A stretch of DNA of 42,503 bases, taken from IMG/VR virus record IMGVR_UViG_3300046047_000272. The stretch is one strand, 5' to 3'. How positions within the stretch are numbered: position 1 is the stretch's first letter; every line of letters begins with the position of its first letter. Under the pieces are notes generated by a model. It ran no database searches. It worked only from the letters and a program-made list of their open reading frames with translations, and was not told where the DNA came from. The translations under genes were made by a program, and so were the position numbers. Of the stretch, positions 2,692 through 20,243 are shown piece after piece. The DNA comes from a virus. Its lineage: Duplodnaviria > Heunggongvirae > Uroviricota > Caudoviricetes.

Positions 2692-2763
2692 GGCCACGGA
2701 GCCTGACGGTAAGGCGTCTCCCTGTCGAGGAGAGGACAGCGGGTCCAACTCCCGTCGTGGTCG
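2692..2763 (+). tRNA. tRNA-Asp(GTC), second copy
   Basis: GGCCACG/CGTGGTC, loop CT-GTC-GA, T-loop TCCAACT (C55). Confidence 0.85.
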
Positions 2764-3115
2764 CGTAGCGTCTGATCTACATCGGTGTCGACTGATAAGG
2801 AAAGGGTGACGAACCCTAATGCGGATGCTGGTGTATCGGAGACGTTCGATACTCTAACGAGATTGCACTCGTTGGGATTCAGTCTGGCTGACCGTGCTGG
2901 ATGCGCGTTGAGGTTCGATTCCTCTTTGAGACTCTAGTCGTGGAACTGGCGGCATGGATGTATACCCATGCTGGGAATCTTGATGACGTCGTTCACCAAG
3001 ATTGAGGAAAGGCCACCTCGTATCACTGTTAGAAAGGCATTGATAGTACACGACATGATGAGATACAGAATCATAATACATCAATATGCTCCTTCTAGAG
3101 CTATTTGAACATAAT

Positions 3116-3199
3116 GGATGGTAGGCTGAGCGGCTAAAGCGCCTCACTGCTAATGAGGTTCGGTTCACACCGTGGCGGGTTCGACCCCCGCACCATCCG
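3116..3199 (+). tRNA. tRNA-Ser(GCT)
   Basis: GGATGGT/ACCATCC, loop CT-GCT-AA, long arm, G73. Confidence 0.93.
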
Positions 3200-3259
3200 C
3201 GTAGGACATGATTAGAAGCAATGAATCATGTTTGCTGGTGTCCTGATAAGGATTCCAGT

Positions 3260-3377
3260 CCTGAATGAGTGACAGGTGGTGGACAATAACTACGTCCTTG
3301 CGGGTTCGAATCTCGCCCAATCTCCGTGGGGATTGGCCGTGCAGCATAGGAGAGCAGTCGCTTCTCACTCACTCAGG
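3260..3377 (+). ncRNA. YrlA-type Y RNA candidate (circularly permuted tRNA mimic)
   Basis: Terminal stem CCTGAATGAGTGA/TCACTCACTCAGG; inside, T arm GCGGG-TTCGAAT-CTCGC, then closed acceptor-like hairpin CCAATCTCC-GT-GGGGATTGG, then D-loop-like GCAGCATAGGAGAGC; Ro60 gene in the same island. Confidence 0.7.
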
Positions 3378-3384
3378 TTTCAAT

Positions 3385-3448
3385 GGTCTCAATTGGTAGT
3401 ATTCCTGATGTTCCATCAAACGACGAGGTTCGATTCCTCGTGAGACTA
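3385..3448 (+). ncRNA. degenerate tRNA-Glu(TTC)-like RNA
   Basis: Same acceptor as the gene at 1354 (GGTCTCA/TGAGACT-A), intact T arm, no D stem, TGATG-TTC-CATCA hairpin. Confidence 0.5.
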
Positions 3449-3585
3449 CGAGGGGTATGGCAACAGTCGCCTCAAGGTCAACCTGGCTCAAGTGGTTATT
3501 AACTTAATCAACTCAGGTTGTTATGCCCGTACAATGTCGTTGCTCGTTCGATGAGAACCTCGTGCTAGCGGGAAAGCCGCCATGT

Positions 3586-3657
3586 GGCCTGTTCTTTCAC
3601 CGGTTAGGAAAGGTGTCTTATAAACACTTAAAGATTGTTCAACTCAATCACAGGCTA
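3586..3657 (+). tRNA. tRNA-Ile(TAT)
   Basis: GGCCTGT/ACAGGCT, loop CT-TAT-AA, A73. Confidence 0.83.
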
Positions 3658-3752
3658 CGATGTCCATAAGTGCCTTCACAAGCTACGTTCTGAGAGATCA
3701 AATGCTCATAAGTAATCATTCCTTGTTCACAGAACATCTTGTGGGCACGTTT

Positions 3753-3836
3753 GCATCCGTGGTGAAATGGTAAACACAATGGCTTCAGAAGCCATCGTCC
3801 ATCATGGACTTGCCTGTTCGAGTCAGGCCGGATGCA
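3753..3836 (+). tRNA. tRNA-Leu(CAG)
   Basis: GCATCCG/CGGATGC, loop TT-CAG-AA, long arm. Confidence 0.93.
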
Positions 3837-3846
3837 CGTTGGAAAT

Positions 3847-3917
3847 GTCTTAATAGCTCAGAGGAAGAGCACTTGGAAAGCAACAAGTACGCGGGATATC
3901 GTCATTCTCTTAAGACA
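3847..3917 (+). ncRNA. paralog of tRNA-Lys(CTT) at 411 with a scrambled 8-nt anticodon loop
   Basis: Perfect acceptor GTCTTAA/TTAAGAC, same D arm AGCTCAGAGGAAGAGCA, T arm GGGATATCGTCATTCTC; loop GAAAGCAA. Confidence 0.65.
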
Positions 3918-6361: not shown

Positions 6362-6434
6362 GGGGGCGCATGTTCCTGGGCGGCGATTCTCCCTCGCACG
6401 GAGAATGTGATGGGTTCAAATCCCATCGCCTCCA
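6362..6434 (+). tRNA. tRNA-Ala(CGC)
   Basis: GGGGGCG/CGCCTCC with G3-U70, loop CT-CGC-AC; weak D stem. Confidence 0.85.
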
Positions 6435-6448
6435 CCCAGTATCATCAT

Positions 6449-6524
6449 CGTGGGGTAGCTCAAGTCAGGTTAGAGCGCATGATTCATATCCATGAGGTTG
6501 ATGGTTCAAATCCATCCTCCACGA
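6449..6524 (+). tRNA. tRNA with CAT anticodon (Met or Ile2 unresolved)
   Basis: CGTGGGG/CTCCACG, loop TT-CAT-AT. Confidence 0.82.
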
Positions 6525-6653
6525 CGACATGGTCACCAGTTCTCTGGTGCTCATGTGAACAATATTAGCACATCTCTGATAATATGATTATGACGCATTA
6601 TCGTATTGATGTTATATCTTTCATGCATGTTCATATGATTGAGGAGTTATACG

Positions 6654-13846: not shown

Positions 13847-14332
13847 ATGTCTTTTACCCAGTTGACAATTGACGATCTACTTGATGACGATGATCATCCA
13901 GTGCTCAATATGACACTTGATCCTGGAGCGCAGGAGCCAAGGAGAATGCATGCTGATGATGCTGGAGCTGATTTGATGTCCATCGAGGATGTTACCCTGT
14001 CTGCTGGTGAGCGGAGAATCGTTCATACTGGTGTACATATTGCCTTAGATCCATCAATGTTAGCTTATGTCGTACCTCGTTCAGGACTGGCCGCTAAGCA
14101 TGGTATCACTATTACGAATGCTCCTGGTTTGATTGATACGGGATATCGTGGCGGTCTTGGCGTATGTCTCCAGAATACGAGTTCGGAGGACTTTGAAATT
14201 CATGTTGGTGATAGAATCGCTCAGTTAGTCGTGCAACGATTCTTACCAGTGCGATTCAGGTTGGTCGATGCGTTAGATGAGACTGAGCGCGGGGATGGTA
14301 GTTATGGCTCTACTGGCGTCCAACGTCAGTAA
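13847..14332 (+). CDS. dut: trimeric dUTPase
   Basis: AGADL, PRSGLA, GLIDTGYRG, RIAQLV, RGDGSYGSTG motifs. Confidence 0.95.
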   Translation: MSFTQLTIDDLLDDDDHPVLNMTLDPGAQEPRRMHADDAGADLMSIEDVTLSAGERRIVHTGVHIALDPSMLAYVVPRSGLAAKHGITITNAPGLIDTGYRGGLGVCLQNTSSEDFEIHVGDRIAQLVVQRFLPVRFRLVDALDETERGDGSYGSTGVQRQ

Positions 14333-14347
14333 GGTTAATAGATGTTC

Positions 14348-14383
14348 TAGGAGGGTACGCTACGTAGCGTACCCTCCTATTTT
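14348..14383 (+). terminator. intrinsic terminator
   Basis: TAGGAGGGTACGC/GCGTACCCTCCTA followed by TTTT. Confidence 0.7.
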
Positions 14384-16233: not shown

Positions 16234-17478
16234 ATGTCATCAGGACAACCAATTCCTTTGAATATGACTGGCGTCAAGTCGGTTCAATGGAGTGCTATTT
16301 TCAGTATGCTTGCCTATCCAGAATGTTCTGAGGTCGAGATCAATGGGCCTGATAATGTCTTTGTAAAGTACAAGGGCAAGAGAATGGAAATGGGCGTTGA
16401 CATCGGTAAGCGTATCGCTTGGAGTGATATTGACGATTTTGGCCGATCAATGGCTGATGTCGAAAGCCATATGGTCAGATATGGACAGGATTATAAGGAC
16501 GCGTTCTGTATTTTTGAGGGTGGCCTACGATTACAGACGAATGATGATCATAAGCCCATTCGAGCACGATTCCATTGTCTTAAGCCTCCTGTTTGTGAAT
16601 TTCCCCTAGTCACGATTGCTAAGCAATCAGTAGAATTAGCCACTCTAGGATCAATTGTCAAGTCCGGTAGCCTATCTCCTGAAATGGCTAAATTCATTAA
16701 GGGACTAATGGCCAAACGACAGACGATTGTCTTCTCAGGTGGAACGGGTGCTGGCAAGACAACATTCCTGAATGCTATATCTAAATTCATTGATCCAACG
16801 GAACGAGTCTGTGTCTGTGAGGACGCACCAGAACTGCTCTTCGAGCATCTTAGAGATACAGCCTACTTGATGTCCTATCCTAAACAGCCAGGTAAGTCCG
16901 CCGACGATCAAGCGACATTATCCTGGGTAACGAGTCAGACAGCTCGTATGCGTGTAGATAGAATCATCATCGGAGAGACCCGTGGACCAGAGTTCTCAGA
17001 TTTCTTAACAGCGGCTAATTCTGGATTCGACGGATCGTTAACCACACTGCACGCAAATACACCAAGAATGGCTCTTGATAAGATGTTCAACTTTACCAAA
17101 CGAGCTCCAGGAAATGGAACAACTCCGTCAACGTCTATTAATAAGGACATTGCCAATGCTGTTGACTATATCATACAGCTTGGTAGACCTAGGAACAAGT
17201 ATCGTGTTCTGGCTATTGAAGAAGTTACCAAGACCGTTGGTGACGATGAATCAGCTAAGATTAAGACGAACCCTATTTATCAGTATAATCAGAATATTGA
17301 TGGATGGGAGAGGACCAGCTGGCCTTCTGATGACGATATGAGAGAATTCTTACAGGACTTCATTGCTAAGGAAGAGGCACGCAGACAAGCTGAGGCCAGT
17401 TCTAGAATGAATGATCTTCAGCAATCATCAACTACATCGAGTCAGAATCATCACTCTAGTAGATTTTTCCGACGATAA
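16234..17478 (+). CDS. CpaF/TadA/VirB11-family secretion ATPase
   Basis: GGTGAGKT, EDAPEL, RMRVDRIIIGETRG, GSLTTLHAN. Confidence 0.9.
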   Translation: MSSGQPIPLNMTGVKSVQWSAIFSMLAYPECSEVEINGPDNVFVKYKGKRMEMGVDIGKRIAWSDIDDFGRSMADVESHMVRYGQDYKDAFCIFEGGLRLQTNDDHKPIRARFHCLKPPVCEFPLVTIAKQSVELATLGSIVKSGSLSPEMAKFIKGLMAKRQTIVFSGGTGAGKTTFLNAISKFIDPTERVCVCEDAPELLFEHLRDTAYLMSYPKQPGKSADDQATLSWVTSQTARMRVDRIIIGETRGPEFSDFLTAANSGFDGSLTTLHANTPRMALDKMFNFTKRAPGNGTTPSTSINKDIANAVDYIIQLGRPRNKYRVLAIEEVTKTVGDDESAKIKTNPIYQYNQNIDGWERTSWPSDDDMREFLQDFIAKEEARRQAEASSRMNDLQQSSTTSSQNHHSSRFFRR

Positions 17479-17585: not shown

Positions 17586-20243
17586 ATGTTTGAGGAAGAG
17601 AGTCATATCAACCAAATGGAAGAACGATCAGGGTTTGATGGATCGTATAATTCTGGACATTGGGGCGCTGACAATAAGGGATGGTCTGACGGTAACTCGT
17701 CGGCACAAGATGCTGATCTTATCAAGACTGTATTGAATCTTATTGGTGCTATCATCTGTATTATCATCGCGCCATTGGCCATAGCCGCTGGTTGTATGGC
17801 GTCAGTATTGTATTACGTGTTCTTCCGTTGGCTCAAGTATCGAGTGAGATTCAATGCGATCATAGCTGCAGCCATATCACTGATCATGTCGTTTATCTTC
17901 ATAGCCCATGGTGGCTTCTCCTCAATCACTAGTGTTGTCACCAATATCCATATTGACGGAGCTAATCAGATCATCCATGTCTTGACGAGTAGCTATCTCA
18001 ATCTAATAACGCCATTAGTGTTATTGGGATTAGTCGTAGGACCATGGATAGGCTTGCTGATTATTTACATGAGATGTGTCAAGATGAGGAATAGCCCGCA
18101 TCTTGTAGCTAACGAGGGATTAGATCCAAAATGGATGTATCATTTCAGATTTAGAATGAGTCCTATAGAATCATTATCACGAAAGAGAATGATTAATGGT
18201 ATAAGGAGCGATACGTTAAAGCCTTATCATAGAAAGGATCTTACACCGTTAGGCGTCGAAGACGACCCGTTAAATCCACCAGACGACCCAACTAAGATCA
18301 AGAATGAGACACTCATTTGTAGAGCTATTGACGAGGTCCCTAAGCATACGTTCATTACTGGGGCCGCTGGATCTGGTAAGACCGTCACATTGAAATCAAT
18401 GATGACGAGGGACATTGACGCTCATACAACGATGGTTATGATTGATTGTAAGAAGGATCCAGAGAACGCGGAGTTCCTATCACGTCGTGCAGCTTCTGCG
18501 GGTTGTCATTTCTATCATTTCTCAGCTGATCTTCCATATATGATTCAGGGTAATCCTGCGGGTCCCTCATCATACGACCCATTATCGTCTGGATCAACGT
18601 CAAAGAAAGTTGACATGCTATTAAATACCCGTGAATGGGATACGGCAGCAGCTGTGTATCGTGACCAGGCTCAATCATATCTTTCTAAGGTGTTCGCCGT
18701 TATTGACGAGGCGAATAAACACGATGTCTTCTCGAAGGTCCCTATTATTGATAATGATCATGGTGAGCTATGGACATTCACTCAGATGCTTGATCCTAAT
18801 ATCTTCAATGCCGTCATTGTCGCCATGAATGATATACCAGACGCATCCTACGTCCGTCAGCAAGCGTCAGAATTAAACGCCTTGTTATCATCGACTAGAC
18901 GAACGACAGAGGTGCAGGCCGCCCAGCATTCACAGGGATCATATCTCTCTAAGATGACTGGTCTTATGGTAAGCAGCTATGGTAAATGGTTGAAAGGAGC
19001 TGATGGTTCAGGGTCTGGGAACATCATTGATCTCATGAAGCTAACATCAGAACCGGGTAATGTCATTTTATTCTCACTTGACGCTGCTCAGAAAGGTGAT
19101 TTAGGCTCATTGATGGGATCAATGGTCTGTACAGATCTCGCGAATATGACTGAGATACGTAAAAATCTTGGTCATACTAATCCTGTATCAGTATATATTG
19201 ATGAGTTCCAGTCATTGCCGCCAGAATGTGTGAAATCAATGTTACAGAAGGCGCGTTCAGCTAACGTGGGATTATCCTTAGCCTTCCAGTCATTAGATCA
19301 GGTATCAGCGGAAACTGGCAGTGACTCATATATCAAATCGTTACTTGATACATGCTCGAACTTCATATTCCATGCTGGATCAAATTATGATACTGGCTTG
19401 ATAGCAACGAAGATTATTGGTACGCATATGAAGAATAAGTATATTGTAAATAAACGTAATGAAACGAAACTTGGCGCTCTGAATTGGACGAATAACAGGG
19501 ATTTACAGGTTAATTCTACACCATCTGAGGAGTGGATAGTCGATCCATCAGATTTTGCTAAACTGGCCATGCCAAACGAACAGAATGGATATCGTTCAGA
19601 AGCTATTATTATTAAGAAGGCTTCATCAGATCCTATTGATAAGGGTAGTGTTGGAGCAATTGCTCATAAAACAAGAATGATTCCTCCTGATTGCGTCTTG
19701 CAGGAATTCTTTGATCCCATGGCTCAACCAATTGATATTGACAAGCCGTTAAATATCAGAGTCAGTAAAGGCTTTATGAATGATGTCAGGAAGGCCGCCG
19801 TGATAACTGACCAAACGCCTATACCTCAAGAGTCAGAACATCAGTATGAACCTGATTCTAGACATCCATCTGCCACTGATACATCGACTCGTAATCATGG
19901 TCCTCAGGAGGCTGATCATCATGATACGCATGATCAACCCGTAGTATCGAATGCTGAGCGTATGAGGAAATTCAGACAGAAAAGAACTCCAGTACAACGT
20001 CCAGTAGTATCATCGTCACGTCGTCAAGAAGCTCAACCAGGGTACAAGGACAATCATAATTCAATGCCAATGCCAAGGCCAATTCCCGCTGAAGACACAA
20101 GCGCACATCGTCAGCATCAACAATCAGTATCATTACCGAAGCCACCGGAATCATCGACGCCCAAGGTACCATCCGATAGATTATCGTCAAGAAGGAATGG
20201 CTTAGGAGGGCATGGATTAACCTTGGATGACTTTGATGACTGA
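17586..20243 (+). CDS. VirD4/TraG/TraD-like type IV coupling protein
   Basis: N-terminal TM helices; GAAGSGKT, IDCKKD, YIDEFQ, QKARSANVGLSLAFQSLDQ; disordered C-terminal tail. Confidence 0.85.
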   Translation: MFEEESHINQMEERSGFDGSYNSGHWGADNKGWSDGNSSAQDADLIKTVLNLIGAIICIIIAPLAIAAGCMASVLYYVFFRWLKYRVRFNAIIAAAISLIMSFIFIAHGGFSSITSVVTNIHIDGANQIIHVLTSSYLNLITPLVLLGLVVGPWIGLLIIYMRCVKMRNSPHLVANEGLDPKWMYHFRFRMSPIESLSRKRMINGIRSDTLKPYHRKDLTPLGVEDDPLNPPDDPTKIKNETLICRAIDEVPKHTFITGAAGSGKTVTLKSMMTRDIDAHTTMVMIDCKKDPENAEFLSRRAASAGCHFYHFSADLPYMIQGNPAGPSSYDPLSSGSTSKKVDMLLNTREWDTAAAVYRDQAQSYLSKVFAVIDEANKHDVFSKVPIIDNDHGELWTFTQMLDPNIFNAVIVAMNDIPDASYVRQQASELNALLSSTRRTTEVQAAQHSQGSYLSKMTGLMVSSYGKWLKGADGSGSGNIIDLMKLTSEPGNVILFSLDAAQKGDLGSLMGSMVCTDLANMTEIRKNLGHTNPVSVYIDEFQSLPPECVKSMLQKARSANVGLSLAFQSLDQVSAETGSDSYIKSLLDTCSNFIFHAGSNYDTGLIATKIIGTHMKNKYIVNKRNETKLGALNWTNNRDLQVNSTPSEEWIVDPSDFAKLAMPNEQNGYRSEAIIIKKASSDPIDKGSVGAIAHKTRMIPPDCVLQEFFDPMAQPIDIDKPLNIRVSKGFMNDVRKAAVITDQTPIPQESEHQYEPDSRHPSATDTSTRNHGPQEADHHDTHDQPVVSNAERMRKFRQKRTPVQRPVVSSSRRQEAQPGYKDNHNSMPMPRPIPAEDTSAHRQHQQSVSLPKPPESSTPKVPSDRLSSRRNGLGGHGLTLDDFDD

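What the first reader, a model, noticed from the sequence alone, without database searches (positions are those of the whole stretch)
3260..3377. YrlA-type Y RNA candidate located 7.6 kb from its Ro60 gene
Seen: permuted order (T arm, then loop-closed acceptor-like hairpin, then D-loop-like segment) held by a 13-bp terminal stem with one mismatch. Established: this is the described architecture of bacterial YrlA Y RNAs, which usually sit next to rsr. Here it is hidden among tRNAs and has an extra GGAC/GTCC hairpin before the T arm.
Basis: partly seen in the sequence, partly recalled or inferred. Interest (0 to 1): 0.72.

Follow-up and report, generated by a model that had tools for sequence, protein, structure and literature searches.

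The report
Permuted tRNA-like RNA, YrlA-shaped
A 118-base RNA gene in a giant phage's tRNA cluster folds like the tRNA-mimicking part of bacterial YrlA "Y RNAs", but it lacks the sequence that normally docks such RNAs onto the Ro60 protein, so it is at best a divergent relative.

Summary
Window 3260-3377 (+) folds robustly into a 13-bp closing helix with one A:C mismatch, a 6-bp inner helix, a 4-bp hairpin, a canonical T arm, a perfect 8-bp loop-closed acceptor-like hairpin directly after the T arm, and a weak D-like arm. A TROVE/vWA Ro60 gene lies 7.6 kb downstream on the same strand.

This layout is that of YrlA. The "extra" hairpin is simply the described V arm. A model built from the candidate alone retrieves almost only Y RNA loci beside Ro60 genes of other phages.

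Against membership:
- A covariance model of 79 phage YrlA-like RNAs gives the candidate 20.9 bits. Real members score 41-126 bits, and tRNA-tRNA junctions reach 34-38 bits.
- Motif HMMs for the conserved Ro60-site strands find two short Y-like hairpins just upstream of Ro60 (10559-10747) as the top hits of the window, but not the candidate.
- No homologue or paralogue exists to test covariation.

It is most likely a divergent or derived YrlA-type tRNA mimic whose Ro60 binding is doubtful.

The scan had already noted the array and these hairpins on this same window, not on other DNA.

The parts
3260..3377 (+). Whole candidate RNA: a circularly permuted tRNA-like module closed by a roughly 20-bp helix
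   Evidence: MFE -43.2 kcal/mol. The same fold appears when it is folded alone and within 3201-3450. Family model R1 gives 20.9 bits in a global alignment. Rfam YrlA gives a local 15.6 bits over the T, AS and D positions.
3260..3272 (+). Closing helix, 5' strand (pairs with 3365-3377)
   Evidence: 12 of 13 Watson-Crick pairs with an A3265:C3372 mismatch. Pair probabilities 0.95-1.0. Reached in 0 of 300 shuffles.
3365..3377 (+). Closing helix, 3' strand
3274..3279 (+). Inner helix, 5' strand (pairs with 3358-3363); equivalent to a tRNA anticodon stem
   Evidence: 6 pairs including 3 G-U; probabilities 0.41-0.87. It aligns with the inner stem of YrlA members in the reciprocal model.
3281..3297 (+). 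V-arm hairpin, GGAC / 9-nt loop / GUCC; CUAC lies at the 3' end of the loop
   Evidence: Pair probability 0.83. This is the position of the V arm described for YrlA. It aligns to the V arm of L044 and L035 members.
3300..3316 (+). T arm (GCGGG / UUCGAAU / CUCGC, with G52-U62)
3317..3336 (+). Loop-closed acceptor-like (AS) hairpin, 8 bp, loop CGUG
   Evidence: It starts directly after the T arm. Pair probabilities 0.84-0.94.
3337..3357 (+). CC linker (tRNA positions 8-9) and weak D-like arm with a GG
   Evidence: Rfam and R1 align it to the YrlA D arm with a G-A mismatch. The alternative UGC/GCA stem has probability 0.21 or less.
10946..12568 (+). Ro60 (TROVE + vWA) gene, 7.6 kb downstream on the same strand
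10559..10644 (+). Context: short Y-like hairpin 1. It has the Ro60-site motifs (AGCGUAG ... UUACUUC ... CUGUUCUC) and no tRNA-like domain.
   Evidence: R1 gives 23.2 bits in a global alignment with the T-AS-D block deleted. 5' motif HMM E 0.012. Fold.
10655..10747 (+). Context: short Y-like hairpin 2 (UGUGAAGA ... UUACUUC ... UGGUUCUCUG)
   Evidence: R1 gives 20.2 bits. 5' motif HMM E 8.3e-6, the top hit of the window; 3' motif HMM is also the top hit.

Best explanation
Window 3260-3377 most likely encodes a real, stable small RNA. It would be co-transcribed with the giant phage's tRNA array and folds as a circularly permuted tRNA mimic. A canonical T arm stacks on a loop-closed acceptor helix. 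A D-like loop with a GG can dock on the T loop. A V hairpin fills the variable-arm position. The place of the anticodon arm is taken by a roughly 20-bp helix that joins the 5' and 3' ends.

This is the layout of the tRNA-like domain of YrlA-type Y RNAs. Related Ro60-encoding phages carry one such RNA each near their Ro60 gene. I read the candidate as this phage's divergent or derived YrlA-type RNA.

Shown: the fold, its non-chance character, the shared layout, and the absence of the family's Ro60-site motifs.

Inferred:
- Its ends are set by tRNA-processing nucleases. RNase P cutting at the tRNA-like element that starts at 3385 would leave a 7-nt 3' tail.
- The long helix protects the ends.
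- It engages tRNA-recognising proteins.
- Because the conserved asymmetric internal loop is replaced by a continuous helix, binding to Ro60 is doubtful, about one in three. The short Y-like hairpins at 10559-10747 are the better Ro60 ligands.
For: - Fold and robustness.
- Non-chance closing stem, 0 of 300 shuffles.
- A T arm followed at once by a perfect hairpin is, in the sequences held here, almost exclusive to Y RNAs next to Ro60.
- The published YrlA description has V, T, AS and D stem-loops in this order.
- Rfam YrlA aligns the candidate's T, AS and D to model positions 29-81.
- The reciprocal model R2, built from the candidate only, hits 32 of 32 non-self places at Y RNA loci within about 2 kb of Ro60 genes in 1.38 Mb. 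Inner stem, V, T, AS and D are aligned in register.
- All 39 nearest huge-phage relatives searched have one YrlA-like RNA within 10 kb of Ro60. Some lie 4.5-8 kb away. The candidate is the only T-AS-D module in this window.
- Deviations at positions 8-9 and in the D arm also occur in clear members: L016/L154 type, L044:6432, L069 and L073.
Against: - Family model R1 gives only 20.9 bits. Members not used in training score 111-126 bits, huge-phage members 47-86 bits, and members with degenerate D arms 41-53 bits. tRNA-tRNA junctions in the same window reach 34 bits.
- 5' and 3' Ro60-site HMMs, both family-wide and clade-specific, do not find the candidate even at E 100-200. They rank the window's two short Y-like hairpins first.
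- There is no internal loop in the closing helix.
- The candidate has C8C9 where 79 of 79 aligned members have U.
- The D arm is thermodynamically weak.
- It is a singleton: no paralogue in the window, no DNA match in phage, IMG/VR or metagenome collections, and the nearest Ro60 relatives are only 52-57% identical. No covariation test was possible.
- With filters off, the reciprocal model's noise reaches 21 bits against 25-29 bits for the best YrlA hits.
Confidence: 0.55

Rival explanations
1. It is a stand-alone tRNA mimic unrelated to Ro60. It would have been derived independently from tRNA genes of the array, for example from the junction of two tandem copies of one tRNA: 3' half, a few-nt spacer, then 5' half. 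It would then have been fixed by a long closing helix. It would act on tRNA-binding proteins as a decoy or competitor for processing, modification or tRNA-cleaving defence enzymes, without Ro60.
For: - The array holds tRNA genes only 1-3 nt apart, so such junctions exist.
- The array also holds other non-decoding tRNA-like elements, such as 3385-3447.
- The Ro60-site motifs are absent.
- A junction of two copies of one tRNA automatically gives a closed acceptor hairpin and a paired anticodon stem (inference).
- The CM score lies within the range of tRNA junction noise.
Against: - No tRNA of the window resembles its halves beyond the T loop.
- The 13-bp helix and the V hairpin are not explained by a simple junction.
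- None of the T-arm-plus-perfect-hairpin cases without a Ro60-site motif in the related loci had a D-like arm.
- The candidate-only model finds Ro60-linked Y RNAs rather than anything else.
Confidence: 0.27
2. It is a decaying relic, either a YrlA or a tRNA pseudogene, that is still foldable but has no function.
For: - It deviates at family-invariant positions: C8, U62, the lost Ro60-site motifs and a weak D arm.
- It is a singleton without detectable conservation.
Against: - Four helices are intact: 12 of 13, 4 of 4, 5 of 5 and 8 of 8 pairs.
- A perfect T loop is not expected of a decaying sequence.
- The loss of both internal-loop strands together with full complementarity in their place looks like remodelling rather than decay (inference).
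Confidence: 0.13
3. It is a chance arrangement of hairpins in a tRNA-rich spacer.
For: - The folding z-score is only -1.84.
- A perfect hairpin after a T arm is expected 0.36 times in this window.
Against: - The closing stem was reached in 0 of 300 shuffles.
- A D-like arm follows in the right register.
- The whole layout matches YrlA.
Confidence: 0.03

Closest known systems
YrlA-type Y RNAs (Salmonella Typhimurium YrlA, Mycobacterium smegmatis YrlA, mycobacteriophage homologues; Chen et al. 2014, PMC4201824; Rfam RF02553)
   Same: - The stem-loops come in the same order inside a terminal helix: V arm, T arm, loop-closed acceptor-like stem (8 bp, as in most members), D arm.
- It is on the same strand as a Ro60/TROVE gene.
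- The T loop is canonical and the D loop has a GG.
   Different: - It has no GNCGAAN0-1G / GGUGCGCAGG 5' motif, no UACUUC before the V arm (only CUAC inside the V loop) and no 3' UUGAUCUC or GGUUCUC motif.
- A continuous 13 + 6 bp helix replaces the helix - asymmetric internal loop - helix arrangement.
- It has CC instead of UA/UG at positions 8-9, and a mismatched D stem.
- It lies 7.6 kb from Ro60, where Chen et al. found nearly all within 4 kb.
- Its scores are far below members: R1 20.9 bits against at least 41; Rfam 15.6 bits against a gathering score of 69.
YrlA-like RNAs of related huge phages found here (e.g. L008:9604-9761, L001:16028-16181, L006:17535-17696, L011:1995-2149, L154:9475-9633)
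   Same: - They are embedded in or beside large tRNA arrays that also hold the Ro60 gene.
- They have the same T-AS-D core.
- Some lie several kb from Ro60.
- Some have non-canonical D arms or no 8-9 linker.
   Different: All of them keep the CAGA | (A/U)G(C/U)G(U/A)AG ... UUACUUC and ... UUCUCUG motifs and the internal loop. The candidate does not.
Short Y RNAs without a tRNA-like domain (Salmonella YrlB; the 'mini-Y' hairpins of this window at 10559-10747 and of relatives such as L004:9838-9938)
   Same: Same phage, same strand, same transcription direction, and part of the same tRNA/Ro60 array.
   Different: The two are complementary. The short hairpins carry the Ro60-site motifs and lack T, AS and D arms. 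The candidate carries T, AS and D arms and lacks the Ro60-site motifs.
Circularly permuted tRNA genes (Cyanidioschyzon merolae type) and two-piece (permuted) tmRNA genes
   Same: The 3' half (T arm, acceptor 3' strand) is encoded upstream of the 5' half (acceptor 5' strand, D arm).
   Different: There is no anticodon loop, no bulge-helix-bulge processing motif, and no tag reading frame or pseudoknots. ARAGORN found no tRNA or tmRNA here, and Rfam gave no tRNA-model or permuted-tmRNA hit on the candidate at E up to 10, only a 13-bit tRNA-Sec match at E 9.8 over 3230-3322.

Membership tests
YrlA-type Y RNA | T stem-loop resembling a tRNA T arm (5-bp stem, UUCRANY loop) | tested here: met
   3300-3316, GCGGG/UUCGAAU/CUCGC.
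YrlA-type Y RNA | Acceptor-like (AS) stem-loop lying directly between the T and D arms | tested here: met
   3317-3336, 8 bp, loop CGUG, zero-nt junction with the T arm.
YrlA-type Y RNA | Nearly invariant D stem-loop (U8, G10, A14, G18G19, A21, 4-bp stem) | tested here: inconclusive
   - G10, A14, GG, A21 and C25 can be aligned, but with a G-A mismatch in the stem.
- Pair probability is 0.21 or less.
- C8C9 replaces the U seen in 79 of 79 aligned members.
- Exceptions exist among clear members: the L016/L154 type has no linker, and L044:6432 has CU.
YrlA-type Y RNA | V stem-loop upstream of T, begun by the conserved YUAY / UACUUC | tested here: inconclusive
   The V hairpin at 3281-3297 is present in the right place. 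However, CUAC lies at the 3' end of its loop and is followed by GUC, not UUC. The family has UACUUC in at least 90% of members.
YrlA-type Y RNA | 5' Ro60-site motif (GNCGAAN0-1G; in phage members GGUGCG(C/A/U)AGG, in huge phages CAGA(A/U)G(C/U)G(U/A)AG) | tested here: not met
   nhmmer with three HMMs (all 79 members; 71 classical members only; 18 huge-phage members) does not report 3260-3299 at E up to 20-200. The positive controls at 10666-10692 and 10574-10596 are the top two hits.
YrlA-type Y RNA | 3' motif (UUGAUCUC / GGUUCUC) forming an asymmetric internal loop with the 5' motif above the closing stem | tested here: not met
   The 3' HMM does not report 3355-3377. The helix is continuous apart from 1x1 mismatches. 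Only a loose likeness remains: UCGCUU-CUC against UCGCUUUUUCUC of the L016/L154 type.
YrlA-type Y RNA | Encoded on the same strand as Ro60 and close to it (nearly all within 4 kb in Chen et al. 2014) | tested here: inconclusive
   It is on the same strand, 7,569 nt upstream. That is beyond 4 kb, but clear members in huge phages lie 4.5, 6 and 7.9 kb away.
YrlA-type Y RNA | Significant covariance-model score | tested here: not met
   - Rfam RF02553: 15.6 bits, local, against a gathering score of 69. That model also misses all phage members and gives 34.3 bits to the L008 member and nothing to the L001 member.
- Own model R1: 20.9 bits against 41-126 for members, and up to 34-38 for tRNA junctions.
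YrlA-type Y RNA | Bound by Ro60/Rsr; carries tRNA-type modifications (pseudouridine 55, dihydrouridine); substrate of RNase P and the CCA-adding enzyme | not testable with these tools
   These need experiments.
Canonical tRNA (RF00005) / tmRNA | Cloverleaf in standard order with an anticodon loop; or a tRNA-like domain plus a tag reading frame | tested here: not met
   ARAGORN found no tRNA or tmRNA at 3260-3377. Rfam gave no tRNA-model or permuted-tmRNA hit on the candidate at E up to 10, only a 13-bit tRNA-Sec match at E 9.8 over 3230-3322. There is no anticodon loop in the fold.

The most novel reading that the evidence does not exclude
This phage may have split the two halves of a Y RNA into separate molecules. 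The short hairpins next to Ro60 would keep the Ro60-docking loop. The RNA at 3260-3377 would keep only the tRNA-like effector domain on a plain helix. It would then be a stand-alone, circularly permuted tRNA mimic working without Ro60, for instance as a decoy or competitor for host or phage tRNA-binding enzymes. That would make it a distinct class of phage tRNA-like RNA derived from YrlA.
Probability: 0.25. Interest if true: 0.6.

Novelty: new variant of a known kind. Interest (0 to 1): 0.38.

Why it matters
Y RNAs tether Ro60 to effectors, and the role of the tRNA-like domain of YrlA is still unknown. A natural RNA that keeps that domain but has lost the Ro60-docking loop, in a phage that also carries docking-loop-only RNAs, would be a ready-made separation-of-function case. 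It would allow a direct test of what the tRNA-like domain does alone.

The session also produced two by-products:
- Ro60 genes of many huge phages sit inside tRNA arrays, with one YrlA-like RNA and several short Y-like hairpins.
- The Rfam YrlA model misses all of these phage RNAs.

The candidate itself remains an unconserved singleton, so its importance is modest until expression or binding is shown.

Tried and rejected
- Rfam at gathering score on the window and on 13 related loci gave no YrlA anywhere, so it is not informative.
- Whole-genome searches: no genome is held for this window.
- DNA similarity of 2900-3900 to the phage collection, and an exact 23-mer of the T/AS junction in IMG/VR, gave no match.
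- The close-relative search with Ro60 in IMG/VR found nothing. Profile searches in IMG/VR and in metagenomes gave only relatives at 55% identity or less. Homologues of the candidate suitable for covariation were therefore not obtained.
- The HEAT-repeat ORF at 6639-7322 has no relatives. Its own 491-kb contig could not be fetched, so the array upstream of the window could not be checked for a canonical YrlA.
- The tool for finding sequencing runs was closed, so there are no expression data.
- Two likenesses of the candidate's 5' strand were considered: to the degenerate third hairpin at 10862-10920, and a 10-nt identity with the inner stem of L016:9795. BLAST of the candidate against the window shows many equally good 10-mers, so both are rejected as chance-level.
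- The downstream AUGGUCUC at 3382-3389, which model R1 used as a 3' motif, belongs to the acceptor stem of the next tRNA-like element at 3385-3447 and is not counted.
- The 8-bp acceptor with a G(-1):C73-like pair was considered as a tRNA-His signature. It is rejected because 8-bp AS stems are the norm in the family.
- The sigma-70 promoter and terminator scan of 2700-3900 found nothing above the shuffle level.

Full report
**Setting**

The window starts inside a very large tRNA array. ARAGORN finds 44 tRNA genes between 147 and 13588, all on the + strand, and Rfam finds 42 tRNA matches. Genes typical of a very large phage follow, including dUTPase, gyrase B and A, and AAA ATPases. No genome is held for the window. 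The window's own HEAT-repeat protein is recorded on a 491,046-nt contig. ORF 10946-12568 (+) is a Ro60 homologue with TROVE and vWA domains. It is about 34% identical over its full length to annotated phage Ro-like RNA-binding proteins. It is 52-57% identical to hundreds of TROVE proteins on metagenomic contigs of up to 547 kb.

**The observation**

- a 13-bp terminal helix, 3260-3272 with 3365-3377, with one A:C mismatch;
- a 6-bp inner helix, 3274-3279 with 3358-3363;
- a GGAC/GUCC hairpin at 3281-3297;
- a canonical T arm at 3300-3316;
- a perfect 8-bp hairpin with loop CGUG at 3317-3336, beginning directly after the T arm;
- the linker CC, then a D-like segment with a GG at 3339-3357.

Pair probabilities are 0.72-1.0 for all helices except the D-like one (0.21 or less). 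The fold is identical when 3201-3450 is folded.

The chance assessment is mixed but clear overall. A perfect hairpin directly after a T arm occurs in 0.6% of shuffles, so 0.36 are expected among the window's 61 T-arm-like sites. A 12-of-13 Watson-Crick closing stem around the module was never reached in 300 flank shuffles.

**What the layout resembles**

Chen et al. 2014 (PMC4201824) define YrlA RNAs by four things: a 5' GNCGAAN0-1G motif thought to contact Ro60; nearly invariant T and D stem-loops; an acceptor-like (AS) stem-loop between them; and often a V stem-loop upstream of T. Nearly all lie within 4 kb of Ro60 on the same strand. The candidate's "extra" hairpin is therefore the described V arm.

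To see what such RNAs look like in phages, I fetched 172 loci around Ro60 homologues. I scanned them for a T arm followed at once by a closed hairpin and a D arm. Of 61 unique T arms with a perfect hairpin directly after them, about 57 lie in RNAs with the full YrlA signature. Most are 100-600 nt upstream of the Ro60 start, often in two to four tandem copies.

An alignment of 79 of these (A2) has this consensus: closing stem, GGUGCG(C/A/U)AGG, inner stem, UACUUC, V arm, T arm, AS, UA, D arm, inner stem, CCGAC-UUGAUCUC, closing stem. Compensatory changes are abundant in the closing stem and in the T, AS and D arms.

Every one of the 39 nearest huge-phage relatives searched has exactly one such RNA within 10 kb of Ro60. 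Some are far from the gene: L001 +4.5 kb, L006 +6 kb, L011 -7.9 kb. These relatives also carry several short hairpins that have the stem motifs but no tRNA-like domain.

**Tests of membership**

- Rfam's YrlA model gives the candidate a local 15.6 bits over the T, AS and D positions, against a gathering score of 69. That model finds none of the phage members at its threshold. It gives 34.3 bits to the L008 member and nothing to the L001 member. The Rfam score can therefore neither support nor refute.
- My model R1, built from the 79 members, gives 111-126 bits to members it was not trained on. It gives 47-86 bits to huge-phage members, and 41 and 53 bits to two members with aberrant D arms.
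- R1 gives the candidate 20.9 bits. That equals the window's short hairpins (23.2 and 20.2 bits). It is below the 34-38 bits that tRNA-tRNA junctions reach in local mode.
- HMMs of the 5' and 3' stem motifs were built from all members, from classical members only, and from huge-phage members only. They rank 10666-10692 (E 8.3e-6) and 10574-10596 (E 0.012) as the two best hits of the whole window. They do not report the candidate at E up to 200.
- In the candidate, the conserved asymmetric internal loop is replaced by an uninterrupted helix.
- Positions 8-9 are CC where all 79 aligned members have U. Clear members without a linker (L016/L154 type) or with CU (L044:6432) exist, so this weighs less.

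**Reciprocal test**

A model made from the candidate alone with its own structure (R2) was searched against 1.38 Mb in 74 sources, which include hundreds of tRNAs. With default filters it gave 32 non-self matches at E up to 1. All were global, and all fell on Y RNA loci within about 2 kb of a Ro60 gene. Inner stem, V, T, AS and D aligned in register.

With filters off on five loci, the three best of 94 matches are again Y RNAs (29.2, 25.9 and 24.6 bits). Unrelated hairpins reach 21 bits, and the huge-phage members reach only 13-15 bits. The layout is therefore specifically YrlA-like, although each single score is marginal.

**Conservation**

The candidate has no paralogue in the window. It has no DNA match in the phage, IMG/VR or metagenome collections. 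No phage with a Ro60 closer than 57% identity was found. No covariation test was possible. The part of the array upstream of the window could not be fetched, so a canonical YrlA there cannot be excluded.

**Reading**

The element is a real structured RNA gene with the topology of the YrlA tRNA-like domain. It is on the Ro60 strand, in a phage lineage whose relatives each carry one YrlA-like RNA. It fails the tested family criteria that concern Ro60 docking, and it scores below every member.

I therefore file it as a divergent or derived YrlA-type tRNA mimic (confidence 0.55), with Ro60 binding doubtful at about one in three. The window's likely Ro60 ligands are the two short hairpins directly upstream of the gene.

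Rivals:
- an independently arisen tRNA-junction mimic (0.27);
- a decaying relic (0.13);
- chance (0.03).

The most novel reading not excluded is a division of labour: docking-loop-only RNAs next to Ro60, plus a stand-alone tRNA-like RNA.

**Verdict**

It is a new variant of a known kind, of modest interest until expression or binding is shown.

Noticed in passing
window 10559-10644 and 10655-10747 (+): Two short hairpins about 200-390 nt upstream of the Ro60 start carry the family's Ro60-site motifs: AGCGUAG or UGUGAAGA, then UUACUUC, then (U/G)GUUCUC. They have no tRNA-like domain. They are the top two hits of the window for motif HMMs built only from other phages. They are likely the real Ro60 ligands, comparable to YrlB.
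   Followed up: yes
window 12681-12808 (+): Downstream of Ro60 lies a third element with a T arm flanked by GGAC/GUCC and a 3' AUGUUCUCGG motif. It aligns globally to the Y RNA model at 16.5 bits. It could be a further aberrant Y-like RNA.
   Followed up: partly
L030, L032, L034-L036, L040, L092 and the other loci of alignment A2: The Rfam YrlA model (RF02553, gathering score 69 bits) reports none of the 79 phage YrlA-like RNAs that sit beside Ro60 genes and show clear covariation. The Rfam family is too narrow for phage members.
   Followed up: yes
L001:12639-13025 and L006:13058-13480: GOLLD RNA (233 and 220 bits) lies 1-1.5 kb downstream of the Ro60 gene, inside the tRNA arrays of two related huge phages. 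No GOLLD was found in this window.
   Followed up: no
L004:9838-9938, L016:9782-9881 and 6390-6500, L006:9708-9802, L001:9701-9792 and 14259-14352: Related huge phages carry several short Y-like hairpins: closing stem ending CAGA, then UGCGUAG or AGUGAAG, inner stem, UUACUUC, loop, then UGGUUCUCUG. These come in addition to one full YrlA-like RNA. I did not look for a prior description of this family.
   Followed up: partly
window 3385-3447 (+): Seven nt after the candidate lies a tRNA-like element with a perfect acceptor stem and T arm but degenerate D and anticodon regions (tRNA model 15.4 bits, mascRNA-like 21.8 bits). Its 5' end would define the candidate's 3' end if RNase P cuts there.
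   Followed up: partly
window 16234-17478 and 17586-20243 (+): There is a T2SSE/VirB11-like ATPase and a TraG/VirD4-like coupling protein (TraG-D_C, TrwB domains) in a phage genome, a few kb beyond the RNA array.
   Followed up: no
window 10109-10201 (+): A T arm at 10109-10125 is followed by a 6-of-7-bp hairpin and a partial tRNA match (10144-10201, 29 bits, model positions 9-63). This is either two abutting tRNA-like remnants or a second, poorer permuted module.
   Followed up: no
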